Of a DNA stretch of 64,000 nt, positions 49,968 to 59,565 are shown one piece after another; position 1 is the first letter of the stretch; each line of letters opens with the position of its first letter. Made by a program: the position numbers and the translations under genes. The notes under the pieces were generated by a model, which made no database searches, had not been told where the DNA came from, and worked only from the letters and a program-made list of their open reading frames with translations. Where the stretch lies: NCBI GenBank assembly GCA_050014175.1, contig JBEKDV010000001.1, positions 19,265 to 83,264 on the forward strand. The letters are read 5' to 3'. This DNA comes from Candidatus Solibacter sp. GTDB taxonomy: Bacteria > Acidobacteriota > Terriglobia > Bryobacterales > Bryobacteraceae.

Positions 49968-51017
49968 ATGCATCCCCTCCTAGCCACGCGCTGGCGGACG
50001 CTGGCGTACCTTGCCGGCTGGGTGCCCATCGTGGCGCTGCTGGACTACCTGATGTGGGCGTCCGGCGGCGCATCGTGGGTGCGCAATACGGCGGTGCTCG
50101 GTCCTGCCTGCTTCCTGTTCGCGTTCGCCTGCCTTTCGGCCGGGCCGATTTGCCGGGTCCGGCCGCTGCGCCTGGCCGACGGCGCCATGTTGGCGGTGAC
50201 CTGGGCAGGCGCGGCGGCGGCAGCCGGCGCCATGTTCAGCGGCGCCGCCTGGGGACTGGCACGGATGGAAGGGCTGCCCGCCGCGCACCTGGACCTGCTG
50301 TTCGGCGTGGGCATCCTGCTCTACCTGCTCTCCGCCGGATTGCACTACGCGGCGCTGGCCGCGGAGGAAGCGCGCGAGGCGGCGCTGGCGGTGGCCGAGG
50401 CGCGGACGCTGGCGCGCGACGCGGAGTTGAACGCCTTGCGCATGCAGATCAATCCGCACTTCCTCTTCAACAGCCTGCACTCGATCGCCGCGCTGGCCAC
50501 GGTGGACGCCGTGCGGGCGCGCGAGATGTGCATTCGCCTGTCGGACTTTCTGCGCAGCAGCCTTGGCCTGGGCGAGCGCGACAGCGTTCCGCTGCGCGAG
50601 GAACTGGCTCTGGCCCGCAGCTATCTGGAAGTGGAGCGGGTACGCTTCGGCGCGCGCCTCCAATTCAGCGAGAACATCCAGGAATCCTGCCAGGATTGCG
50701 CCGTTCCGGTGCTCTTGCTGCAACCGCTGGTGGAAAACGCCGTGAAGCACGGCATCGCGGGACTGGTGGAAGGCGGCGCCATCCGCCTGTCCGTGGAACG
50801 CCTCGGCCCGAGCGTCCGCGTGGCGGTGGAGAATGCGTTTGACCCGGACGCGGCGCCGCCCAACCGGCTCGGCATGGGGCTGCCGCAGGTGCGCCGCCGC
50901 CTGGAACTGCGCTATGGCGGCGCCGCCAGCATGCAAGCCGGCGGGGGCGAAGGCGTCTATCGCGTGGAGTTGCGATTCCCCTGCGAGCCTTCCATGGCTT
51001 CCAGCAGCCGCGCGTAG
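49968..51017 (+). CDS. LytS/YehU-type sensor histidine kinase (His_kinase PF06580-like)
   Basis: LRMQINPHFLFNSLHSIAAL H-box region and NAVKHG ATPase motif; N-terminal TMs. Confidence 0.8.
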   Translation: MHPLLATRWRTLAYLAGWVPIVALLDYLMWASGGASWVRNTAVLGPACFLFAFACLSAGPICRVRPLRLADGAMLAVTWAGAAAAAGAMFSGAAWGLARMEGLPAAHLDLLFGVGILLYLLSAGLHYAALAAEEAREAALAVAEARTLARDAELNALRMQINPHFLFNSLHSIAALATVDAVRAREMCIRLSDFLRSSLGLGERDSVPLREELALARSYLEVERVRFGARLQFSENIQESCQDCAVPVLLLQPLVENAVKHGIAGLVEGGAIRLSVERLGPSVRVAVENAFDPDAAPPNRLGMGLPQVRRRLELRYGGAASMQAGGGEGVYRVELRFPCEPSMASSSRA

Positions 51018-51736
51018 CCGGAGCGGCTGACGGGCAGCCGGGTGCCATCGGCCAGTATGGCGACACGGCTTTCCTTCCCGTAGGGCTCGATGCGCGCCAC
51101 CCGTTCCAGGTTGACGATGGCGGAACGGTGGATGCGCACGAAGCAGGCGGGGTCGAGGAGGGCTTCGAGGGCGGCGATGGGCTGCTGCTTGAGATAACTC
51201 TTGCCTTCGCTGTGCAGCGCCACGTAGTCGTCCTGCGCGAGAACGTAATCCAGCTTGCCGATGGGAATCACATGCACGCGCGTGCCGTCCTTGACCACGA
51301 TGCGTTGCGGGCGAACGCCGGCGGGCCGGACCTCGGGCGCGAGTTCCGGCAGCACGCGGCGTTCTCCCAGTCGGGCCAGCGCCCGCTCCAGCGCCCGCTC
51401 GAAACGTTCCGCGCTGAAAGGTTTGAGCAGGTAGTCCACGGCGTGGGCGTCGAAGGCGCGCATGGCGTACTGGTCGTATGCGGTGACGAAGACGACCACC
51501 GGCGCCTGCGAGGGCTCGATCAGTTCGAGGACTTCGAAGCCGTCCAGTTTGGGCATCTGGACGTCGAGGAAGAGCAGGTCGGGGCTGGTTTCGGAGATGG
51601 CTTTGACCGCCTCGAACCCGTTGGCGCATTCGGCGGCTACCACGATCTCCGGATGCGCGGCCAGCAACTCGCGTAGATACCCCCGCGCCAGTTCCTCGTC
51701 ATCCACCACGACGGCCTTTAATGTACGTTCCATCAC
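50957..51736 (-). CDS. LytR/AlgR-family response regulator (REC + LytTR)
   Basis: VVDDEELAR...PDLLFLDVQMPKLDGFE receiver and FVRIHRSAIVNLERV LytTR motif. Convergent with the kinase gene and overlapping it by 61 nt. Confidence 0.85.
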   Translation of the reverse strand: MMERTLKAVVVDDEELARGYLRELLAAHPEIVVAAECANGFEAVKAISETSPDLLFLDVQMPKLDGFEVLELIEPSQAPVVVFVTAYDQYAMRAFDAHAVDYLLKPFSAERFERALERALARLGERRVLPELAPEVRPAGVRPQRIVVKDGTRVHVIPIGKLDYVLAQDDYVALHSEGKSYLKQQPIAALEALLDPACFVRIHRSAIVNLERVARIEPYGKESRVAILADGTRLPVSRSGYARLLEAMEGSQGNRNSTR

Positions 51737-52440: not shown

Positions 52441-52947
52441 ATGACCTTTCAGATCGGCGAGAAGGTGGTGTATCCCAACCAAGGTGTTGGCACCATCGAG
52501 AATATCAGTACCCGTTCGTTTGGCACCGCTTTCGAAAAATTCTACCTGCTGCGCTTTGGCTGCAGCATGACGGTGCTGGTGCCATTGGCCAACGCCGCCA
52601 ACATCGGGCTGCGCAGGATAACCAAAGACCGTGAGATTTCGCGAATCCTCTCCTACCTGGCGATCGGCTGGTGTCCGCTTACTGCCGACTGGAAGGTCCG
52701 CTTCAAGGAGAACAGCGACAAAATGCAGAGCGGGGATCTGCTGAAAGCTGCCGAGGTCTTCAAGGGTCTGCTGCAACTGCACATCGATAAGCCGCTCTCC
52801 TTCCGCGAAAAGAAGATGCTGGACCGGGCGCGGCACATGCTCGTTTCGGAGATTTCGATTGCCCGCGGCGTTCCCGAAATTCATGCCGTGGCCTTGATGC
52901 AGCGCGCCTTGGCCAAGAGCGGCCTGACTTTGCCCGCGACTCTGTAA
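52441..52947 (+). CDS. carD: CarD/CdnL-family RNA-polymerase-binding transcription factor
   Basis: FQIGEKVVYPNQGVGTIENI (Tudor-like RID) ... NIGLRRI ... KMLDRARHML. Confidence 0.85.
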   Translation: MTFQIGEKVVYPNQGVGTIENISTRSFGTAFEKFYLLRFGCSMTVLVPLANAANIGLRRITKDREISRILSYLAIGWCPLTADWKVRFKENSDKMQSGDLLKAAEVFKGLLQLHIDKPLSFREKKMLDRARHMLVSEISIARGVPEIHAVALMQRALAKSGLTLPATL

Positions 52948-53027
52948 GGTCCACCACACCAATCGTCACGGGTTCGGCGCGGGGGAGACGGTTTTCCGGC
53001 GTGGCGGGGTAAAATTGACTCTTTGCC

Positions 53028-53690
53028 ATGTCACGAACCCATACTCCGGTCACGAATGAACTGGCGGACTACATCCGCCAGGTAACGCTGCGCGAACCCG
53101 AAGCGCTGCGCCAACAACGCGAAGCCACCGATCCGCATCCGCAAGCCTCCATGCAGACCTCGCCCGAACAGGGCCAGTTGCTGCATCTGCTGGCGCGCCT
53201 GGCGGGGGCGACGAGGGCGCTGGAGGTGGGCGTGTTCCTGGGCTACAGTTCCGCCTGGGTGGCGCTGGCGCTGCCCGAAGGCGGCAAAATCGTCGCCTGC
53301 GACCGGAGCAGGAAGTACACCGCCCAGGCGCGGCGGCTGTGGCGCGAGGCCGGCGTGGAAGACAAGATCGAATTGCGCCTCGGTCCCGCCCTGGATACGC
53401 TCGATGCCCTGATCGCCGAGGGGAACAGCGGCAGCTTTGACTTTGCCTTCATCGACGCCGATAAAGCCAACTATGCGAACTATTACGACCGCGCGCTGGC
53501 GCTGGTGCGTCGCGGCGGCCTCATCGTGATCGACAACGTGTTGTGGCACGGCGATGTGACGGACGCCAGCAAGACCGATGCGGACACGGAGGCCATTCGC
53601 GCCTTCAACCGCAAACTACGCGCCGACGAGCGCGTGGCGCTGAGCCTGGTGCCGCTGGGCGACGGACTGACACTGGCGTGCAAACTCTGA
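53028..53690 (+). CDS. Class I SAM-dependent O-methyltransferase (caffeoyl-CoA OMT / Methyltransf_3 family)
   Basis: LEVGVFLGYSSAWVALAL, FDFAFIDADKANY and LVRRGGLIVIDNVLWHG. Confidence 0.85.
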   Translation: MSRTHTPVTNELADYIRQVTLREPEALRQQREATDPHPQASMQTSPEQGQLLHLLARLAGATRALEVGVFLGYSSAWVALALPEGGKIVACDRSRKYTAQARRLWREAGVEDKIELRLGPALDTLDALIAEGNSGSFDFAFIDADKANYANYYDRALALVRRGGLIVIDNVLWHGDVTDASKTDADTEAIRAFNRKLRADERVALSLVPLGDGLTLACKL

Positions 53691-54739
53691 CCGCGCCCAC
53701 CATCTTTCCCTGCTACGCGGCGGCCGATCGCGGCATCGCGGAGCGCCTGGCGGCGTTATTGGAACGCGGCGCCGACGTGCGCGTGTTCCTCGACGAAGGG
53801 CAAATGGCGGACGGCGCGGACCTCGCCGAAAAGGCGCGCGAGGCCCGCATGGCGGATATCGTCGTCGTGCTGTTCTCGCGAAATTCTTTGCCTTCGCGCT
53901 GGCCGCGCGCGCAGTGGGAAGACGCCCTGGTGAAGGAGCCGGCGGAGGAAGGCGTGCGCATCGCTTTCGTCAAGTGCGACGATTGCATCCCGCCGCGCGT
54001 GCTCACCCCCATGTTCGACGCCGCCCGATTGCGCGAGGTGAAGCGCTGGGTGCGCGGCAGCGAACCGGGCGAACCGCCCGCCGCCGAATTCTCCGCCGAC
54101 CTGGAGGTGCTGGGCATTGCGATCGCCGACCGTCCGGGCGCGGAAACCGTGCGGAACATCGCGCTGGCCCGCGAATTCGCCCGCGCCTTTGGCGGCGATT
54201 TCGACGCGGTGCTCCACCTCGATTGCGCCACCGGCACGCTGGCCGACATGGCCGGCGATCTGGCGTGCCAGGTGGGCCTGCATCTGGAAGGCGAGTTGGC
54301 CGCCAATCTGGAACATCTGCGCATTTTCTCGGAGGCGCGCCGCTTTCTGATCGTGCTGGAAGGCGGCGCCCCCGCCGACCTGACCTTCGGCGCGCGCTGC
54401 TCGACACTCATTTCGACCGAACCCGGCGAGCCCTCGCAGGACGCCTTGCGCCAACTGGCGCGCGCCTTCGATGCCGTGGAGGATTGGACGGAGGCCTGCC
54501 GTCTGGCGCGTCAGGCCCGCCGCGTGGCGCACGAGCAGTTCCGCCTGGCCGAATGCTTCGAGATCATGACCCAATGGCGGGCCATGGCGGAGGAGCACGA
54601 CGATCGCCCGGCCGTCGACGAGGCCAGCCGCGAGCTCGTTTGGATTCTGGATGGCTGGGGCCGCACGGAAGAAGCCCGCCAATTGGAACAGACGCGCGCC
54701 ATGGAGTTCGACGAGCAGTTGCCGTTGTTCTTCGGGTAA
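53678..54739 (+). CDS. TIR-like domain protein with a degenerate STAND/NB-ARC-like module and a helical C-terminus
   Basis: IFPCYAAADRGIAERLAALLERGADVRVFLD...IVVVLFSRNSLPSRWPRAQWEDAL is TIR-like. VLGIAIADRPGAETV occupies the place of a Walker A, and FLIVLEGG the place of a Walker B. The start is uncertain (GTG 53678 or CTG 53687); the ATG at 53543 was rejected. Confidence 0.55.
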   Translation: MQTLTAPTIFPCYAAADRGIAERLAALLERGADVRVFLDEGQMADGADLAEKAREARMADIVVVLFSRNSLPSRWPRAQWEDALVKEPAEEGVRIAFVKCDDCIPPRVLTPMFDAARLREVKRWVRGSEPGEPPAAEFSADLEVLGIAIADRPGAETVRNIALAREFARAFGGDFDAVLHLDCATGTLADMAGDLACQVGLHLEGELAANLEHLRIFSEARRFLIVLEGGAPADLTFGARCSTLISTEPGEPSQDALRQLARAFDAVEDWTEACRLARQARRVAHEQFRLAECFEIMTQWRAMAEEHDDRPAVDEASRELVWILDGWGRTEEARQLEQTRAMEFDEQLPLFFG

Positions 54740-54822
54740 TATCGGAATACAGCGATCTTATCTATTGAGAACTATTCTTATGCTTGATAGAGTGAAGAGG
54801 AGAAGCAACCGGGAGGCTCGGC

Positions 54823-55098
54823 ATGACCACGGTGACCATATCGCTGCCAGAAACATTGAAGACGTTCATCGATGAGCAACTCGCCACAAAGGGGTACGGC
54901 AACGTCAGCGAGTATTTCCGCTCGCTGCTCCGAGATGCGCAGGAGCGCGACGAGGAGGCGCGGCTGGAAGCTCTCCTTCTTGAAGGGTTGGCCACGGGCG
55001 GCGATGACATTCCGTTGACGCGCGCTTTCTGGAAGGAACTCAAGGCCGAGGCCTTGGACCTCGCCAAGAAACACAAGACGCGGAAAAGGAGAGCGTGA
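54823..55098 (+). CDS. parD: ParD-type (RHH/CopG-like) antitoxin
   Basis: MTTVTISLPETLKTFIDEQLATKGYGNVSEYFRSLLRDAQ is the ParD/COG3609 pattern. Confidence 0.8.
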   Translation: MTTVTISLPETLKTFIDEQLATKGYGNVSEYFRSLLRDAQERDEEARLEALLLEGLATGGDDIPLTRAFWKELKAEALDLAKKHKTRKRRA

Positions 55099-55427
55099 AG
55101 CACATCATCAGGCCAGCGGCAAAGGATGACATTATCCGGCAGTTCCGGTATTACCTGTTGGAGGATGCGCTTGAAGCCGCAGTCCACTTTCTCGACGCCG
55201 TGGATGAATCCATTGAAGCCATCTGCCAGATGCCGAATATCGGCGCGCCGAAACCTGTCAAGAATCCGATCCTTTCCGGGCTACGCTCATGGGCCGTAAA
55301 AGGCTTCGAGGACATCCTCATTTTCTACATCGTTCAGCCTGACGCCCTGCGCGTCGTTCGCGTTCTGCACGGGCGGCGGGACATCCAGCGAATTCTCGAA
55401 CGGGAGAAGAACCCGTCCGTTTACTGA
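55095..55427 (+). CDS. parE: ParE/RelE-family toxin
   Basis: GTGA overlap with parD. The pattern RPAAKDDIIRQFRYY ... ILIFYIVQPDALRVVRVLHGRRD is typical. Confidence 0.8.
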   Translation: MKHIIRPAAKDDIIRQFRYYLLEDALEAAVHFLDAVDESIEAICQMPNIGAPKPVKNPILSGLRSWAVKGFEDILIFYIVQPDALRVVRVLHGRRDIQRILEREKNPSVY

Positions 55428-55442
55428 AAAACGGAAGGAGGC

Positions 55443-56981
55443 TTACATGCGGCAAACCGTCAAGTCCTTATTCGCATAAGGACAGACGAGGCCTGGCGGC
55501 GCCGGCCGCGAGGTCAGAATCCAGGTTACCGGATACTGCCTGACCAACCTTTCAAAATCCGCCGGCTCAAAGTGACCGAGCCCGCGCTCCGCCCCCACCT
55601 GGTTCTCCCATTCCGTGGCCAGCCGCGGGAACAAAGAGACGGCCCCGCTATCCTTCACGTAGTCCGCCAGCACGCTGCGCTCCGCCACCGCGCGAAATCC
55701 GTGCGCATCTTCTCCCGGAGCCGTCATGTAGTTCGGATCGGTGGCAAACACCGCGTCTTTGGGTGTGTGCTGGCGGATCCACAGGAAGGCGGACATCCAG
55801 GTGTTGCCATTGTTCGATCCCGGCCACTCCACGTGCTGGCTGGCCGGGAACGAACTCCGCTGCACCAGCACCATGCCGAGCGCCAGGGGAACGAAGAGCG
55901 CCAGCCATCGCCAAACGCTTTTCTTGATTCCGTACTCTCCGATCAGCCCGCCCAACAGAACGAAGAAGATGACGTACAGCAAATGAAAACTCCGCATCGG
56001 TTGCAGGCGGGTGTAGACTTCCAGGCGTTGCGGGATGGTCAGGATCACGGCGGCGGCGGTGAACAACAGCCCGAACGGAATCAGGCTGCCCGACAATTCC
56101 CGGAACGCGGGCAGCGTGCGGCGGGGACGGGCCACGGCGAACCACCACAGCACGGCCAACGGCGCGAACACGCCGGCCCACTCGTACCAGGCCCACGTGG
56201 AAACGAAGAAGAACGTCCGCGCCAACAGACATTCCCGCGCGGCTCCCTGCACCGGTGCGAAGTCAAACAGGGCCGGCAGACCGATCATCGCTCCGAGCAC
56301 CGGCTGGGCAACGCTACGCAATGCCCTGCGCCGCCTGACCAGTTCCATGCCACCGATGAACAACAAGCCATAGACCGCCATCTGCGGATGCACGGCCGCG
56401 GTCAATACGAGCCACGCCAGGGCGCGCAACGGCCGGTTCGATAAATAGCAGGCCACCGCGAAGAGCGTCGTTGGAGTGGACAGAGATCGCGCCGTCAGGT
56501 ACGGGTCCATGATGGCCAGCGCCGTGCCGGTCACCGGCACGCTGAGGGTGGCCGCCAGGACCGCCACGCCGCTCCACCTTGCGTAACTGCTTTCAAAGCA
56601 GGTGCCGAGAAGCTGCCATGCCGCCAGCAGGAGCAGAAAAATGCTCCCGATGTGCCAGGCGAAGATCACCAGGTCGATGGGCAAATGGGTCAGCCGGGCG
56701 GAACCGCCTACCAGGTCCGAAAAAATCGAAAGGTGCGCGTGCGACAGGAAGAACTGAGCGCCGAAAGGGTACAGATCGGGGTCCGCCACGCGCTTGATGG
56801 CGGGCACATAGATCGCAGCGTCATCCACGCCCAGGTGGTAGCCGTGGACCAGCACCGCCAAGCCTGTGATGGCGCTCAAACCCGGCAAGGGCGACTTGGC
56901 CCACCATCTGCCGCACGCTTCAAAAAATGACATCGAAATCGCCCGTGAAACGGCGTCCTCTCTGTCCGAAAAACAGACCAA
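55443..56981 (-). CDS. Large polytopic membrane protein (GT-C-like?) with a soluble C-terminal domain
   Basis: More than 10 TM helices. No catalytic motif recognised. The start may be the ATG at 56933. It overlaps the end of the upstream gene. Confidence 0.55.
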   Translation of the reverse strand: MVCFSDREDAVSRAISMSFFEACGRWWAKSPLPGLSAITGLAVLVHGYHLGVDDAAIYVPAIKRVADPDLYPFGAQFFLSHAHLSIFSDLVGGSARLTHLPIDLVIFAWHIGSIFLLLLAAWQLLGTCFESSYARWSGVAVLAATLSVPVTGTALAIMDPYLTARSLSTPTTLFAVACYLSNRPLRALAWLVLTAAVHPQMAVYGLLFIGGMELVRRRRALRSVAQPVLGAMIGLPALFDFAPVQGAARECLLARTFFFVSTWAWYEWAGVFAPLAVLWWFAVARPRRTLPAFRELSGSLIPFGLLFTAAAVILTIPQRLEVYTRLQPMRSFHLLYVIFFVLLGGLIGEYGIKKSVWRWLALFVPLALGMVLVQRSSFPASQHVEWPGSNNGNTWMSAFLWIRQHTPKDAVFATDPNYMTAPGEDAHGFRAVAERSVLADYVKDSGAVSLFPRLATEWENQVGAERGLGHFEPADFERLVRQYPVTWILTSRPAPPGLVCPYANKDLTVCRM

Positions 56982-59379
56982 ATGCCGGATCGGCGATGTT
57001 GTTATGGAAGGCTTCGGGATTGAAGTGGTTGGTGAGATTGTACGCGCTCACCGACAGCCGGACCGTGTATTTGGGATTCACCTTGATGTCCTTGGAAAAA
57101 CGCGAATCCACCGACAGGAAGCTGGGGAATCTTTGCGCATTGGGCACTCCCACGTAGTTCTGCAGGGCGTCCGTCACGGCATAGGGAAAGCCGCTGCGAA
57201 ATTCGATCAGCGGTGCGATGCGGAAGCCCGCCGGAAGCTGTACGACTCCCCACGTCAAAAACCGGTTCGGTACGTTGACCGGCAGATTGCCGAACTGATT
57301 GGGGCGAATAATCGGCACCGGAAAACTGCCCAGGTAGTTGGCGAAATCGTTCAAATCGCCGCGCGCTTGCGAACGCACATAGGAGAAGAACAATTGGCGC
57401 TTGTCATTCATGCGCAGGCGGGCCGTAGCCTCAAACTGGCGATATCGCGATTGCCCGCCCCCCGTCAACAGGTTCGAGCCCACACCGCCGTTGGACGGGC
57501 CCGGCGGCACCGGGTTCATAATCACCAGTCCGGCCGATTGCTTCTGGGTATAGCCGATCCGCATCAGGAGACGCTGCGTGAGGGGCTGCTCGATCTGCAC
57601 GTTGCCGGTGTCGCTGCGCGGCGAAAAATTCCCCTGGTTCGTCTCCTGGAACACGAACGCGGATTTCGTGCTGACCGTGCCCAGTCCGTTCCGATAGAGC
57701 GACGGTCCGGCGGTAATCTGCCCGCCGGGTCCGAACATGGTGACGATCTCATTGGGGTATTGGGCAAACGAATAGACGCTCAGCGGCACGTGGTCGTAGA
57801 ACCATCCGAAGCCCGCACGCAGCACGGTGCCCAGCTTCTCGAACGGCGTCCAGGCAATGGCCGCGCGCGGCGCCACGCGCAAACTCTCCGACAGCTCCTG
57901 CGACTCCGTGCGAAGACCCAGGTCCACCGCCAGCCGCGGCGTGATCAGCCAGTGATCCTGCCCGAAGAACGCGTACTCCAGGTCCCATCTGAGGAAGCGC
58001 AGCCCCGGCGTGAAAGTGACGCGTTCCAGCAACTGGTTCGACGCATCCACAACGTTGAAGGGCCGCTCCGTCACCACGCCGTTGTCGGTGCTTTCCGCCA
58101 GGTACGCGCCCGTTTTATAGTTGTGCGTCCCCCCCAGCCAGTGGACGGCCCCGAAGGAATAGACCGGGGTCCAGCTCAGGCGGGAAGCGTCGCGGCGCTG
58201 CTCGGCGAAATAATTCCCGCTATTGCCGCCGGGGGCGATGGTCAGATCCTGGGTGCCCTGCGCCCAGACGTGCGCGTCGAAGTGGGTCACCGAGAAGGTA
58301 TTTTCGAAGAGCCCGCTCCCCAGCGTCCATTTGTCCGACAGGGTGACGGTGATATTGTCCGTGGCGGCGTCCGGCGATGTCGCCTCCGGATTGAAGTAGT
58401 TCATATTCACGTAGGCCATGCGCTGCGGCGCCACGTGAACGGTCGCGGTGACAAGTTGCTTCTGGGATGCCACCCAGTCCACTTGCGCGAAAGAGTTGAA
58501 CCCTTCCTGCTTTTTCTGGTTGTAGGGGAAAGGCAGTTCGTAGACCTCGGTCTTGCGGACCGCGTATTCCAACCCTTCGGAAAAGTAGAGCTTTCCCGCC
58601 ACGATGGGCCCTTCCACGTTGATCCGCGGCGTGGCGTCGCGCAGGCCGCGCAGGTGGTAGCTGCGAATGATGAAATCGGGAAACGGATCGCTCAACTCCC
58701 ACTTCCATTTGTCGCCGCCGCGCCGCGTGGCCACCGAAACCAGGCCCGCCGTGAACCTTCCGTACTCGGCCAGGAAAGCCGTCTGATAGACGTTGATGGT
58801 CTCTACGCTGTCGATGGGCACGGTCAGTCCGAATTGTCCGGTTGCCGGGTCGGTGACATCGGCCGAGTTGACCATCAGCGCGCTGCGATGTTCGCCGGCG
58901 GCCGACATCACCAGGCCGCCCCCGGACACGCGCATCACACCCGGCAGCAATGGCAAGGCCTCCGTTACCGTCGGCGGGCGTCCAGGCAGCTCTTTGGCGG
59001 TCTGCGCCGAGATCTCGTTGGACGGGGACGCGCCCTGCTCCAATGGAGCGACGGCTCCTTTGACTTCGATGCTCTCCTTGGGCGCCATGGCCGGCGTCAA
59101 CATCAACTCCACGGAAGAGGGCAATTCGAGATTGTCCTTTTGCACGGGTTCGAATCCGTCCTTCGAAGCATGGAGTTCATAATGCGCCGGTTTGAGCGAA
59201 TCGAACCGGGCGTGGCCGTCTTCAGCCGTCTGCGCAGAAGCGACAACCGTTCCGCCAGTCTTCAATTCTACGCGAACACCCGGGACGGGCCGGTTGGACG
59301 AATCGACTACCGAAACATCGAGGCTGTTTGCAGCGCCCTGCCAAAACAGAAGCAGGGCAACCAGTACGGGGAATGGCAT
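56920..59379 (-). CDS. TonB-dependent-receptor-like outer-membrane beta-barrel with an N-terminal carboxypeptidase-regulatory-like domain
   Basis: Signal peptide MPFPVLVALLLFWQGAAN; CarboxypepD_reg-like VVDSSNRPVPGVRVELK...; plug-like region; C-terminal aromatic residue (DVIF). Confidence 0.8.
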   Translation of the reverse strand: MPFPVLVALLLFWQGAANSLDVSVVDSSNRPVPGVRVELKTGGTVVASAQTAEDGHARFDSLKPAHYELHASKDGFEPVQKDNLELPSSVELMLTPAMAPKESIEVKGAVAPLEQGASPSNEISAQTAKELPGRPPTVTEALPLLPGVMRVSGGGLVMSAAGEHRSALMVNSADVTDPATGQFGLTVPIDSVETINVYQTAFLAEYGRFTAGLVSVATRRGGDKWKWELSDPFPDFIIRSYHLRGLRDATPRINVEGPIVAGKLYFSEGLEYAVRKTEVYELPFPYNQKKQEGFNSFAQVDWVASQKQLVTATVHVAPQRMAYVNMNYFNPEATSPDAATDNITVTLSDKWTLGSGLFENTFSVTHFDAHVWAQGTQDLTIAPGGNSGNYFAEQRRDASRLSWTPVYSFGAVHWLGGTHNYKTGAYLAESTDNGVVTERPFNVVDASNQLLERVTFTPGLRFLRWDLEYAFFGQDHWLITPRLAVDLGLRTESQELSESLRVAPRAAIAWTPFEKLGTVLRAGFGWFYDHVPLSVYSFAQYPNEIVTMFGPGGQITAGPSLYRNGLGTVSTKSAFVFQETNQGNFSPRSDTGNVQIEQPLTQRLLMRIGYTQKQSAGLVIMNPVPPGPSNGGVGSNLLTGGGQSRYRQFEATARLRMNDKRQLFFSYVRSQARGDLNDFANYLGSFPVPIIRPNQFGNLPVNVPNRFLTWGVVQLPAGFRIAPLIEFRSGFPYAVTDALQNYVGVPNAQRFPSFLSVDSRFSKDIKVNPKYTVRLSVSAYNLTNHFNPEAFHNNIADPAFGLFFGQRGRRFTGDFDVIF

Positions 59380-59565
59380 CAGATCGGCATTCGTCTTTGA
59401 TTTTATGGACGCGTCTATGCAATCCCCAGTTTCACCAGGCTGTTCGTGGGAGTGCCGGGGCTGCGAAGGGCGCCCCACGGGCGAGATTGCCCTTCACGCT
59501 ATTTTAGCTCGTCCGGGAGCGGCAGTGTGACGGCGCCTGGTATCCGTCAAATGAAACCGGTGGCG

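What the first reader, a model, noticed from the sequence alone, without database searches (positions are those of the whole stretch)
53028..55427. O-methyltransferase / TIR-pseudoSTAND / ParDE cluster: a compact TIR protein whose NTPase motifs are degenerate
The reading frame of a ~350-aa protein opens inside the 3-prime end of a Methyltransf_3-type O-methyltransferase gene. There is no in-frame ATG near the TIR start. The likely start is GTG 53678 or CTG 53687, overlapping the OMT stop at 53688-53690. The N-terminus is TIR-like (IFPCYAAADRGIAERL...VVVLFSRNSLPSRWPRAQWEDAL). The middle is laid out like an NB-ARC/STAND NTPase, but Walker A reads GIAIADRPGAETV and Walker B reads FLIVLEGG, so nucleotide binding is probably lost. 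The C-terminus is helical-repeat-like. A ParD/ParE pair follows 84 nt downstream. Known TIR-STAND (Avs-like, bNACHT) defence proteins are much larger and keep their ATPase motifs. A minimised, catalytically dead STAND scaffold coupled to a small-molecule methyltransferase is unusual and could be a new sensor-effector arrangement.
Basis: partly seen in the sequence, partly recalled or inferred. Interest (0 to 1): 0.65.

Follow-up and report, generated by a model that had tools for sequence, protein, structure and literature searches.

The report
Stripped-down TIR/NLR-like protein coupled to methyltransferase
A soil-bacterium gene pair joins an ordinary small-molecule methyltransferase to a shrunken relative of immune "NLR" receptors that has lost its ATP-binding loop and its usual catalytic residue, yet is conserved across an order of Acidobacteria, so it probably works as a binding or scaffold protein rather than a classical immune enzyme.

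Summary
A Methyltransf_3 O-methyltransferase (OMT, 53028-53690) is followed by a 353-aa protein (GTG 53678 to 54739) whose start lies 13 nt inside the OMT gene. A ParD/ParE pair follows.

The protein has three parts:
- a true TIR domain;
- an NB-ARC-like alpha/beta domain;
- a short TPR-like helical cap.

It is a reduced derivative of full-length TIR-NB-ARC-TPR STAND proteins of the same order, Bryobacterales. Relative to those paralogues, it differs as follows:
- The Walker A loop is deleted, not mutated.
- Walker B hhhhDD has become hhhhEG.
- The TTR sensor motif has become STE.
- The ARC/winged-helix module is missing.
- The canonical TIR catalytic Glu is Gln79, a position that is variable in the family.

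The gene is nevertheless under purifying selection (dN/dS about 0.15). The OMT adjacency, with the overlapping GTG start, holds in 50 of 57 informative genomes. The P-loop-intact paralogues never sit next to the OMT. ParDE is window-specific and unrelated. No defence-island context was found.

The best reading is a nucleotide-independent, probably non-NADase adaptor made together with the OMT. The mechanism is inferred, not shown. I rate it a new variant of a known kind, of moderate interest.

The parts
53028..53690 (+). Class I, cation-dependent, SAM-dependent catechol-type O-methyltransferase (220 aa). The SAM motif LEVGVFLGYS and the metal ligands IDADK...DN are intact.
   Evidence: Pfam Methyltransf_3, E 2e-69. 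Closest solved structures are MxSafC 5lhm (E 5e-67) and SynOMT 3cbg (E 1e-62). D143, D145, D169 and N170 are invariant in alignment A6.
53678..53690 (+). 13-nt gene overlap, GTGCAAACTCTGA. The GTG start of the TIR gene lies inside the last four OMT codons and its stop codon, which implies translational coupling.
   Evidence: Read directly from the sequence. The junction GCGTGCAA(A/G)CT(C/T)T(G/A)A is conserved across related loci: GTG at the exact position in 37 loci and ATG in 3.
53678..54739 (+). CDS of the 353-aa reduced TIR / NB-ARC-like / TPR-like protein.
   Evidence: More than 460 homologues, almost all 352-357 aa. AF2 model with pLDDT 88.9 and pTM 0.80. dN/dS 0.13-0.17 against close relatives.
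53699..54058 (+). TIR domain (residues 8-127). It is the most conserved part of the protein: 40 of 120 positions are at least 97% invariant.
   Evidence: Pfam TIR_2, 56.7 bits. Foldseek matches to BtpA, PdTIR, BtTir and AbTir with probability 1.0. A family profile hits BtTir, AbTir and TIRAP in the PDB.
53912..53914 (+). Codon CAG = Gln79, at the position of the canonical TIR catalytic glutamate (W-x-x-x-E; AbTir 'WTNYE', BtTir 'WTEYE'). It is followed by the invariant W80 and E81.
   Evidence: Profile alignment to AbTir and BtTir. Family counts at position 79 are Q 92, A 9, E 5, L 3, R 3, V 1; at position 81, E in 112 of 113. The same pattern is seen in the GTDB loci. The long paralogues carry KEEW/REEW here.
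54083..54427 (+). NB-ARC-like alpha/beta domain without NTPase motifs (residues 136-250).
   Evidence: BLASTP of this domain alone: 36% identity to P0139 (E 1e-11) and 42% identity to P0190 (E 2e-16). P0139 and P0190 both pass the Pfam NB-ARC cut-off. The domain-only AF2 model (pLDDT 92) has the plant NLR ZAR1 as best PDB match (E 3.8e-4, probability 1.0), followed by Cdc6/ORC/RFC.
54149..54157 (+). Site of the deleted Walker A loop (V158-R159-N160). Paralogues carry ...AGAGAGKT... here.
   Evidence: Alignment A2. The pairwise alignment shows a 6-residue gap exactly over GAGAGK of P0139.
54344..54364 (+). Walker B remnant FLIVLEG (paralogues have LLILDD or LLVLDN). In addition, the sensor-I/RNBS-B motif 'TTR' of the paralogues is 'STE' here (LISTE, about residues 243-247).
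   Evidence: Alignment A2. Family counts: position 228 is E 96, D 7; position 229 is G 110.
54428..54715 (+). C-terminal five-helix, TPR-like cap (residues 251-346). It is homologous to the extreme C-terminus or first TPR unit of the longer paralogues. The ARC/winged-helix region between the NBD and the TPR in the paralogues is absent.
   Evidence: tblastn of P0139 residues 407-496 against window 54452-54721: 42% identity, E 2e-15; P0139 residues 273-406 have no counterpart. Weak Pfam TPR_7 and TPR_12 hits. Foldseek matches to FLU-TPR, LGN and KLC with probability 0.97-1.0.
54823..55098 (+). ParD-type RHH antitoxin. It lies inside the finding's coordinates but is NOT part of the conserved module.
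   Evidence: Pfam ParD_antitoxin, 25.2 bits against a cut-off of 21. Absent from all related loci. GC 0.56 compared with 0.65-0.71 in the OMT and TIR genes.
55095..55427 (+). ParE toxin, overlapping ParD by 4 nt. NOT part of the conserved module.
   Evidence: Pfam ParE_toxin, E 4e-14. Absent downstream of the TIR gene in related loci.

Best explanation
WHAT IT IS (shown). The locus is a two-gene module that is widespread and mostly vertically inherited in Bryobacterales (Acidobacteriota).
- Gene 1 is an ordinary cation-dependent catechol-type SAM O-methyltransferase. It occurs alone in many other phyla.
- Gene 2 starts at a GTG inside the last codons of gene 1. It encodes a 353-aa 'pseudo-NLR': a TIR domain, a P-loop-less NB-ARC-like domain and one TPR-like cap.
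- Gene 2 derives from full-length TIR-NB-ARC-TPR STAND paralogues of the same order. The changes are deletion of the Walker A loop, degradation of Walker B and sensor I, loss of the ARC/winged-helix switch module and most TPR repeats, and replacement of the canonical TIR catalytic Glu by Gln.

HOW IT MOST LIKELY WORKS (inferred).
- It cannot bind or hydrolyse a nucleotide in the canonical P-loop manner, so it cannot use a nucleotide-driven STAND switch.
- It is probably not a canonical NADase.
- Strong purifying selection, an invariant and very basic TIR surface, and coupled translation with the OMT point to a non-enzymatic binding or scaffold subunit. It would be made together with the OMT and act on or with it, for example by regulating, localising or ligand-gating the methyltransferase, or by sensing its substrate or product.
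- ParDE is an unrelated toxin-antitoxin insertion.
For: Architecture:
- TIR_2 HMM hit.
- AF2 models with pLDDT 88.9 and 92.2.
- Foldseek matches: bacterial TIRs at probability 1.0; ZAR1 NB-ARC at E 3.8e-4, probability 1.0; TPR domains.

Descent from intact STANDs:
- 219 representative proteins at E<1e-10, many of 400-830 aa.
- These carry GxGKT, hhhhDD/DN, TTR, GLPL-like and TPR repeats, and two tested examples pass the Pfam NB-ARC cut-off.
- The NBD alone aligns with them at 36-42% identity, with a gap over the P-loop.

Loss of the catalytic Glu:
- The profile alignment to AbTir and BtTir places Q79 at the catalytic position.
- The position is variable in the family: Q, A, E, L, R, V, K, H.

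The gene is functional:
- dN/dS is 0.13-0.17, lower than for the OMT.
- 82 of the 339 positions scored are at least 97% invariant.

Coupling to the OMT:
- The OMT is directly upstream in 50 of 57 informative loci.
- The overlapping start is conserved.
- Synteny with close relatives breaks at both ends of the pair.
- 43 loci holding P-loop-intact paralogues have no OMT next to them.

Not a defence island:
- Neighbours are CarD, Nramp, HK/RR pairs and membrane proteins.
- PADLOC gives only a ThsB-like hit at E 0.021 and a domain-level mad2 hit.
- There are no viral relatives.

The OMT is autonomous elsewhere: homologues at 55-62% identity in cyanobacteria and proteobacteria have no TIR neighbour.
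Against: - No direct evidence of an OMT-TIR protein interaction; no complex prediction or co-purification was possible.
- Adjacency might be preserved simply because the start codon is locked inside the OMT gene.
- E81, two residues after the canonical position, is invariant and could in principle serve catalysis. Five to seven family members have Glu at position 79.
- Seven of the 57 informative loci have the TIR gene without an adjacent OMT, so the protein can exist without that neighbour.
- Degenerate Walker motifs do not rule out a defence role. KpAvs8 is a reported example (PMC13581612).
- Immune genes can also be inherited vertically.
Confidence: 0.45

Rival explanations
1. The protein is still an immune (abortive-infection) TIR effector-sensor. 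It would oligomerise without ATP when its small TPR cap or NBD binds a trigger, and it would cleave NAD+ using a relocated acidic residue (E81). The OMT would modify the TIR product or the trigger.
For: - The TIR domain is the most conserved part of the protein, and W80 and E81 are invariant.
- The relatives are classic TIR-NB-ARC-TPR proteins of the kind used in defence.
- Defence STANDs with degenerate Walker motifs have been reported (KpAvs8; PMC13581612).
- PADLOC gives a weak ThsB-like hit, and the OMT's methyltransferase domain hits mad2.
Against: - The canonical catalytic position is Q79 and drifts among Q, A, L, R, V, K and H.
- E81 lies two residues along helix alpha-C, on a different face (DSSP helix 77-91).
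- No defence genes are nearby apart from a window-specific ParDE.
- Nearly all loci come from different species, with syntenic, vertical-looking inheritance across an order.
- No viral homologues.
- A systematic survey of TIR signalling systems does not mention methyltransferase partners.
Confidence: 0.17
2. The OMT adjacency is a frozen accident: once the start codon lay inside the OMT gene, the pair could not easily separate. On this reading the pseudo-NLR works with its P-loop-intact TIR-NB-ARC-TPR paralogues in the same genomes, as a co-receptor, decoy or negative regulator. This would resemble plant sensor/helper NLR pairs, plant TN proteins, or animal inhibitory TIR proteins.
For: - Paralogues with intact GKT, DD and catalytic Glu exist in Bryobacterales, in one case in the same MAG (L023 and L091, both from MFD01633.bin.1.226).
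- The two forms share TIR, NBD and C-terminal cap sequences suitable for hetero-oligomerisation.
- Seven loci keep the TIR gene without an adjacent OMT. Two of these still carry the relic GTGCAAGCT.
- The OMT is autonomous in other phyla.
Against: - The paralogues are not linked to the pseudo-NLR gene.
- Adjacency survives although the flanks are rearranged on both sides, and it persists down to about 50% protein identity. That is more than inertia usually preserves.
- No interaction evidence exists for this reading either.
Confidence: 0.2
3. The gene is a decaying remnant (pseudogene) of a STAND gene, or an artefact of a frameshift or sequencing error at the OMT 3' end.
For: - There is no ATG start.
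- The NTPase motifs are lost and the catalytic Glu is lost.
Against: - The ORF is intact at 352-357 aa in more than 100 independent assemblies.
- The GTG start is conserved.
- dN/dS is 0.13-0.17.
- The AF2 models are confident.
- Many residues are invariant.
Confidence: 0.02

Closest known systems
Bacterial TIR-NB-ARC-TPR STAND proteins (NLR-like). Examples are the 400-830-aa Bryobacterales paralogues P0139 and P0190. Their NOD-TPR part resembles AfsR (PDB 8k60). A solved 824-aa TIR-containing 'tetratricopeptide repeat protein' (PDB 9m0n) matches the TIR part.
   Same: - Same domain order, with demonstrable homology over the TIR, the NBD core and the C-terminal TPR-like unit.
- Same bacterial order.
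   Different: The window protein:
- lacks the Walker A loop, the second Walker B acid, the TTR sensor motif, the whole ARC/winged-helix module and all but one TPR-like unit;
- has Gln at the TIR catalytic position;
- is coupled to an OMT, which none of the 43 paralogue loci examined is.
Avs/AVAST and bNACHT anti-phage STAND NTPases, including Avs members with TIR effectors and KpAvs8 with degenerate Walker motifs (PMC13581612).
   Same: - STAND-type core fused to an N-terminal effector-type domain and a C-terminal repeat sensor.
- There is a precedent for degenerate ATPase motifs in a functional member.
   Different: - Much smaller (353 aa).
- No PADLOC hit to any Avs or bNACHT model.
- No defence-island context.
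- The P-loop is physically deleted.
- The effector's catalytic residue is lost.
Plant truncated TIR-NBS ('TN') proteins and P-loop-independent sensor NLRs (own knowledge; not tested here).
   Same: A TIR plus NB-type domain without a full sensor region. In some of these, function does not depend on the P-loop, and they often act as partners of full-length NLRs.
   Different: - Kinship to the plant proteins was not examined; the similarity is in layout only.
- Plant TN proteins usually keep the Walker A motif and the catalytic Glu.
- No OMT partner is known for them.
Non-enzymatic animal TIR adaptors (TIRAP/MAL, MyD88).
   Same: - A TIR domain without the catalytic glutamate, which in the animal adaptors works by assembly.
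- TIRAP is the best full-length PDB match of the family TIR profile (E 7.6e-12).
   Different: - No death domain or PIP2-binding domain.
- Bacterial origin.
- A scaffold function is inferred here, not shown.
Class I cation-dependent O-methyltransferases: MxSafC (5lhm/5log), SynOMT Slr0095 (3cbg), plant CCoAOMT.
   Same: The OMT gene is a full, intact member of this family: E 5e-67 to MxSafC, with conserved SAM and metal ligands.
   Different: Only in Bryobacterales does it carry an overlapping downstream TIR gene. Its physiological substrate is unknown.
Thoeris (ThsB TIR protein plus ThsA-type effector).
   Same: A small TIR protein encoded in a two-gene operon.
   Different: - PADLOC ThsB gives only E 0.021.
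- The partner is a catechol-type OMT, which is not among the Thoeris effector types surveyed in 10.64898/2025.12.03.692087; that text never mentions methyltransferases.
- The catalytic Glu is absent.

Membership tests
TIR domain (Pfam TIR_2, PF13676) | Profile HMM score above the gathering threshold | tested here: met
   56.7 bits against a cut-off of 28, residues 9-106.
TIR domain (Pfam TIR_2, PF13676) | Flavodoxin-like TIR fold | tested here: met
   The AF2 model matches BtpA, PdTIR, BtTir and AbTir with probability 1.0 and target-normalised TM-scores of 0.52-0.69.
Enzymatic (NADase) TIR domains | Catalytic glutamate in the W-x-x-x-E motif of helix alpha-C | tested here: not met
   The position aligned to the AbTir and BtTir Glu is Q79. 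Family counts are Q 92, A 9, E 5, L 3, R 3, V 1.
Enzymatic (NADase) TIR domains | NAD+ cleavage or cyclase activity | not testable with these tools
   Needs a biochemical assay. The invariant E81 leaves a non-canonical mechanism formally open.
STAND / NB-ARC NTPases | Walker A motif GxxxxGK[ST] | tested here: not met
   The motif is deleted. There is a gap exactly over GAGAGK(T) of P0139.
STAND / NB-ARC NTPases | Walker B motif hhhhD[DE] | tested here: not met
   The sequence is FLIVLEG. An acidic E228 is retained in 96 of 113 members, but the second position is Gly in 110 of 113.
STAND / NB-ARC NTPases | Sensor I / RNBS-B (TTR) motif and the ARC1/ARC2 module (GLPL, MHD-like motifs) | tested here: not met
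   TTR of the paralogues aligns to STE. The roughly 135-200-aa ARC/winged-helix segment of the paralogues has no counterpart.
STAND / NB-ARC NTPases | Pfam NB-ARC (PF00931) hit above threshold | tested here: not met
   No NB-ARC hit for the window protein. The paralogues P0139 (28.4 bits) and P0190 (47.5 bits) pass the 23.5-bit cut-off.
STAND / NB-ARC NTPases | Common descent and fold of the nucleotide-binding-domain core | tested here: met
   The NBD alone shows 36-42% identity to the paralogues, E 1e-11 and 2e-16. Foldseek on the domain-only model gives ZAR1 at E 3.8e-4 and probability 1.0, followed by Cdc6/ORC/RFC.
Known anti-phage defence systems (Avs, bNACHT, Thoeris, MADS) | Match to a PADLOC system model, together with the system's partner genes | tested here: not met
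   Only a ThsB-like hit at E 0.021. The OMT matches just the methyltransferase domain (profile positions 261-395 of 492) of mad2. No partner genes are present.
Known anti-phage defence systems (Avs, bNACHT, Thoeris, MADS) | Enrichment in defence islands or mobile contexts | tested here: not met
   Conserved neighbours are Nramp, CarD and two-component systems. There are no viral relatives. No formal enrichment statistic was computed.
Class I cation-dependent O-methyltransferase (Methyltransf_3) | HMM score above threshold, a SAM-binding motif, and the Asp/Asp/Asn metal ligands | tested here: met
   233 bits against a cut-off of 22. LEVGVFLGYS, IDADK and DN are invariant in alignment A6. E 5e-67 to MxSafC.
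ParDE type II toxin-antitoxin | ParD (RHH) and ParE domains above threshold, arranged as an overlapping gene pair | tested here: met
   PF03693 scores 25.2 bits against 21; PF05016 scores 53.2 bits against 23. The genes overlap by 4 nt.
ParDE as part of the OMT/TIR cluster | Conserved linkage with the TIR gene | tested here: not met
   No ParD or ParE downstream of the TIR gene in any of the 61 loci. The pair also has a lower GC content.

The most novel reading that the evidence does not exclude
This could be a bacterial non-enzymatic TIR adaptor. That is, a domesticated 'pseudo-NLR' that signals or regulates purely by assembly, as animal TIR adaptors do. It would either gate a small-molecule methyltransferase or pair with the P-loop-intact TIR-NB-ARC-TPR paralogues as a sensor, decoy or inhibitor, like a plant NLR pair. 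As far as I know, scaffold-type TIR function has not been described in bacteria.
Probability: 0.15. Interest if true: 0.8.

Novelty: new variant of a known kind. Interest (0 to 1): 0.52.

Why it matters
Bacterial TIR and STAND proteins are currently understood mainly as enzymes and ATP-driven switches of anti-phage immunity. This lineage has shed the P-loop, the ARC switch and the canonical catalytic glutamate. It has nevertheless been kept under strong purifying selection, translationally coupled to a housekeeping-type methyltransferase, across an abundant order of soil and peat Acidobacteria.

If it acts as a scaffold or regulator, it would show that NLR-like immune architectures can be domesticated into non-immune, or at least non-enzymatic, roles in bacteria. 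That would parallel pseudo-enzymes, truncated plant NLRs and animal TIR adaptors. It would also give a compact, well-folding model of 353 aa for studying what the TIR and NBD cores do without catalysis.

It also flags an unannotated degenerate NB-ARC domain that profile libraries miss.

Tried and rejected
- **Ankyrin/DARPin hits.** Single-sequence PDB searches of the protein and of its TIR part returned designed ankyrin proteins. All of these come from the short 'LLERGADV' motif and are spurious. A profile search gave proper TIR hits instead.
- **PADLOC mad2 hit of the OMT**. It covers only the generic methyltransferase domain, and no MADS partner genes are present. I do not count the OMT as a MADS member.
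- **NCBIfam FxSxx_TPR hit** (19.6 bits against a cut-off of 300). It only echoes the NBD-like region and is far below threshold.
- **NCBIfam names for the OMT.** Only weak hits to unrelated methyltransferase equivalogs.
- **ParDE as part of the system.** Rejected, because it is not conserved.
- **Frameshift, sequencing error or pseudogene.** Rejected.
- **CTG 53687 as the start.** Rejected in favour of the conserved GTG 53678.
- **Viral origin.** A scan of IMG/VR found only one 34-residue partial match.
- **Literature.** No paper links a TIR domain, an O-methyltransferase and Acidobacteria. A search for PDB code 9M0N returned only irrelevant papers. The TIR-signalling survey does not mention methyltransferases.
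- **Geometry of E81.** I could not inspect where E81 points in the model, because coordinates are not exposed. The argument rests on helix periodicity only.


Full report
**1. Observation**

The region holds four co-directional genes.
- An O-methyltransferase (OMT) at 53028-53690: Pfam Methyltransf_3, E 2e-69.
- A TIR protein. Its frame is open from 53543, and its only plausible start is GTG 53678. Translation gives MQTLTAPTIFPCYAAADRG... and ends at TAA 54737-54739 (353 aa). Pfam TIR_2 scores 56.7 bits against a cut-off of 28.
- ParD at 54823-55098.
- ParE at 55095-55427.

GTG 53678 lies within GCG-TGC-AAA-CTC-TGA, the end of the OMT gene, so the two genes overlap by 13 nt.

The start is not an artefact.
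- More than 100 homologues from independent assemblies are 352-357 aa long and begin M/VQ(A/T)LT.
- In related loci the junction GCGTGCAA(A/G)CT(C/T)T(G/A)A is conserved. GTG sits at the exact position in 37 loci and ATG in 3. The same motif is visible a few bases away in most of the rest.
- The first four residues are disordered in the structure model. That fits an N-terminus whose sequence is dictated by the overlapping OMT codons.

**2. Anatomy of the 353-aa protein**

Two AlphaFold2 models were made. The full-length model has pLDDT 88.9 and pTM 0.80. A model of residues 128-353 has pLDDT 92.2. They show three units.
- Residues 8-127 form a TIR fold. Foldseek gives probability 1.0 to BtpA, PdTIR, BtTir and AbTir.
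- Residues about 136-250 form a parallel alpha/beta domain. Its best PDB matches are the plant NLR ZAR1 (6j6i_C: E 3.8e-4, probability 1.0), then Cdc6/ORC/RFC AAA+ modules.
- Residues 251-346 form five helices that match TPR domains such as FLU, LGN and KLC.

**3. Where it comes from**

An exhaustive HMMER search found 635 cluster representatives at E<=0.001 and 219 at E<1e-10. Many are 400-830 aa long. These longer relatives carry the following features:
- an intact Walker A (for example AGAGAGKTTLA, GMAGRGKTLLA);
- Walker B (LLILDD, LLVLDN);
- a TTR sensor motif;
- a GLPL-like 'GYLPIA' motif;
- an 'RYRLHALVRE' winged-helix segment;
- up to about seven 'GNQALILxAWGRLEEA' TPR units.

P0139 and P0190 pass the Pfam NB-ARC threshold. 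P0190 also aligns over its NOD-TPR part with AfsR.

The window protein aligns with these relatives across the TIR, the NBD core and the last helical unit.
- The NBD alone gives 36% identity to P0139 (E 1e-11) and 42% to P0190 (E 2e-16).
- P0139 residues 407-496 match window 54452-54721 (E 2e-15), whereas its residues 273-406 have no counterpart.
- The pairwise alignment shows a six-residue gap exactly over GAGAGK.
- The quoted 'GIAIADRPGAETV' is thus the conserved 'LADxPG + beta-1' segment that precedes the P-loop. It is not a mutated P-loop.
- Walker B is reduced to hhhhE-G and TTR to STE. The ARC/winged-helix switch is gone.

The protein is therefore a genuine, heavily reduced descendant of TIR-NB-ARC-TPR STAND proteins. 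It cannot bind or hydrolyse nucleotide in the canonical way.

**4. The TIR active site**

A profile of the family's TIR domains aligns to AbTir ('KKDWTNYELDG') and BtTir ('KKNWTEYELNG'). Their catalytic Glu falls on the residue just before the invariant W80.
- In the window protein that residue is Gln79 (codon 53912-53914).
- In 113 family members the position reads Q 92, A 9, E 5, L 3, R 3, V 1. The species-representative loci add K and H.
- By contrast, the long P-loop-intact relatives have KEEW or REEW at this site.
- A position that wanders among chemically unrelated residues is not under catalytic constraint.
- E81 is invariant. However, it lies two residues further along helix alpha-C (helix 77-91), and therefore on another face. 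A non-canonical catalytic role cannot be excluded without coordinates or an assay.
- The best full-length PDB match of the family profile is the non-enzymatic adaptor TIRAP.

**5. It is a working gene**

- dN/dS against close relatives (dS 0.35-0.5) is 0.13-0.17, lower than for the neighbouring OMT at 0.21-0.27.
- The TIR domain is the most conserved part, with 40 of 120 positions at least 97% invariant.
- Many of those invariant positions are Arg or Lys: R30, R35, K52, R54, R68, R74, R77, R119, K122, R123 and R126.
- This pattern suggests a conserved binding surface for an anionic ligand or partner. That is an inference.

**6. Genomic context and the OMT link**

A scan of one genome per GTDB species returned 61 loci, essentially all in Bryobacterales (Solibacteraceae, Bryobacteraceae and relatives).
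- In 50 of the 57 loci with enough upstream sequence, the OMT lies immediately upstream with the same overlap.
- Both proteins diverge in parallel: TIR 88% down to 50% identity, OMT 83% down to 63%.
- Seven loci lack an adjacent OMT. Two of them still show the relic GTGCAAGCT.
- No other neighbour is general. An Nramp transporter precedes the OMT in 24 loci but is missing from the window. CarD, LuxR-type response regulators and histidine kinases occur in subsets.
- Nucleotide synteny between the window and its closest relatives breaks exactly at both ends of the OMT-TIR pair.
- ParDE occurs in none of the loci and has GC 0.56, compared with 0.65-0.71 for the pair. It is an independent toxin-antitoxin insertion.
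- Forty-three loci of P-loop-intact paralogues in the same order never have an OMT next to them. At least one MAG holds both kinds (L023 and L091).
- One well-conserved 500-aa paralogue group sits among housekeeping genes (uracil-DNA glycosylase-like, CoaBC, Gmk, YicC-like), as judged by reading the ORF translations; no profile search was run on these.

Seen from the OMT side:
- The enzyme is a standard cation-dependent catechol-type OMT. It scores E 5e-67 to MxSafC and 1e-62 to SynOMT, and its SAM and metal ligands are intact.
- It has 55-62% identical homologues in cyanobacteria, proteobacteria and other phyla, and none of them has a TIR neighbour.
- The TIR gene is thus a Bryobacterales-specific addition to an old, autonomous enzyme.

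**7. Defence or not?**

- PADLOC gives only a ThsB-like hit at E 0.021, plus a domain-level mad2 hit for the OMT.
- The neighbours within 5 kb are a LytS-type kinase, a LytTR regulator, CarD, a DUF6798 membrane protein and an outer-membrane beta-barrel.
- No viral contig encodes a relative.
- A systematic survey of TIR signalling operons does not mention methyltransferase partners.
- No paper in the library connects TIR, O-methyltransferase and Acidobacteria.
- Degenerate Walker motifs alone do not exclude defence. KpAvs8 is a published case (PMC13581612).
- Nevertheless, context, inheritance pattern and the lost catalytic residue all point away from a classical abortive-infection effector.

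**8. Most likely mechanism**

Shown:
- the domain architecture;
- descent from intact STANDs;
- loss of Walker A, Walker B, sensor I, the ARC module and the canonical catalytic Glu;
- purifying selection;
- conserved overlapping-gene linkage to the OMT.

Inferred:
- The protein is a nucleotide-independent, probably non-NADase binding or scaffold protein. It would be made together with the OMT by translational coupling and would act with or on it, through regulation, localisation, or ligand or product sensing (confidence about 0.45).

Rivals:
- an ATP-independent but still catalytic TIR immune protein that uses E81 (about 0.17);
- a partner, decoy or inhibitor of the intact paralogues, with the OMT adjacency being only a locked-in accident (about 0.2);
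- a pseudogene or artefact (about 0.02, effectively refuted).

**9. Comparison, novelty and verdict**

By homology and fold the protein belongs to the TIR superfamily and descends from NB-ARC STANDs. It fails every motif-level criterion of a functional STAND NTPase and the catalytic-Glu criterion of NADase TIRs. I therefore do not file it as an active member of either class.

It resembles plant TN or P-loop-independent NLRs and animal TIR adaptors in logic only. That comparison rests on my own knowledge and was not tested here.

It is a new variant of a known kind: an order-wide, OMT-coupled pseudo-NLR. Interest is moderate (0.52). The defence 'sensor-effector' interpretation and the inclusion of ParDE are not supported.

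Noticed in passing
window 52947-53028; compare L003:4074-5333: In 24 related loci an Nramp (PF01566) metal-transporter gene lies between CarD and the OMT. In the window it is absent and CarD abuts the OMT. Nucleotide synteny with close relatives breaks exactly at both ends of the OMT-TIR pair.
   Followed up: partly
window 54740-55427: The ParDE pair and its upstream spacer have GC about 0.56, against 0.65-0.71 for the OMT and TIR genes. ParDE is absent from all related loci. This looks like a recent insertion of a toxin-antitoxin module.
   Followed up: partly
L062-L079 (for example L077:6001-7509 and its downstream genes): A P-loop-intact 500-aa TIR-NB-ARC-TPR paralogue (P0139-like, 70-80% identical across Bryobacteraceae) sits in a conserved housekeeping neighbourhood: a uracil-DNA glycosylase-like gene, CoaBC, guanylate kinase and a YicC-like gene (identified by reading the ORF translations; no profile search was run). 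So the intact paralogues also look chromosomally stable rather than island-borne.
   Followed up: partly
window 49968-51017 (+) and 50957-51736 (-): A LytS-type histidine kinase (PF06580) and a LytTR response regulator converge and overlap by 61 nt at their 3' ends. The same convergent arrangement is present in L003 and L059.
   Followed up: no
L014:6001-7059 (protein P0094): This copy of the TIR gene, from a long-read MAG, appears frameshifted at two places (for example '...FSREFACPRAGRARSGKTRWSR...'). It is either an assembly error or a real pseudogene.
   Followed up: no
L018:4828 and L022:2812: Two loci lack the upstream OMT but keep GTGCAAGCT at the TIR start. This is a relic of the OMT 3' end and suggests secondary loss of the OMT.
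   Followed up: no
window 53678-54739, TIR residues 30-126: There is an unusually high number of invariant Arg/Lys residues in the TIR domain, including the R68, R74 and R77 cluster in 'FSRxSxPSRWPRAQWE'. That stretch replaces the usual 'LSPxSxxSxWxxxE' and hints at an anionic ligand or partner.
   Followed up: no
window 55443-56981 (-) and 56920-59478 (-): Downstream lie a 512-aa polytopic membrane protein (DUF6798) and an 852-aa CarboxypepD_reg plus outer-membrane beta-barrel protein. The two ORFs overlap by 62 nt, and a long antisense ORF (56866-59400) shadows the second one, as is typical of high-GC DNA.
   Followed up: no
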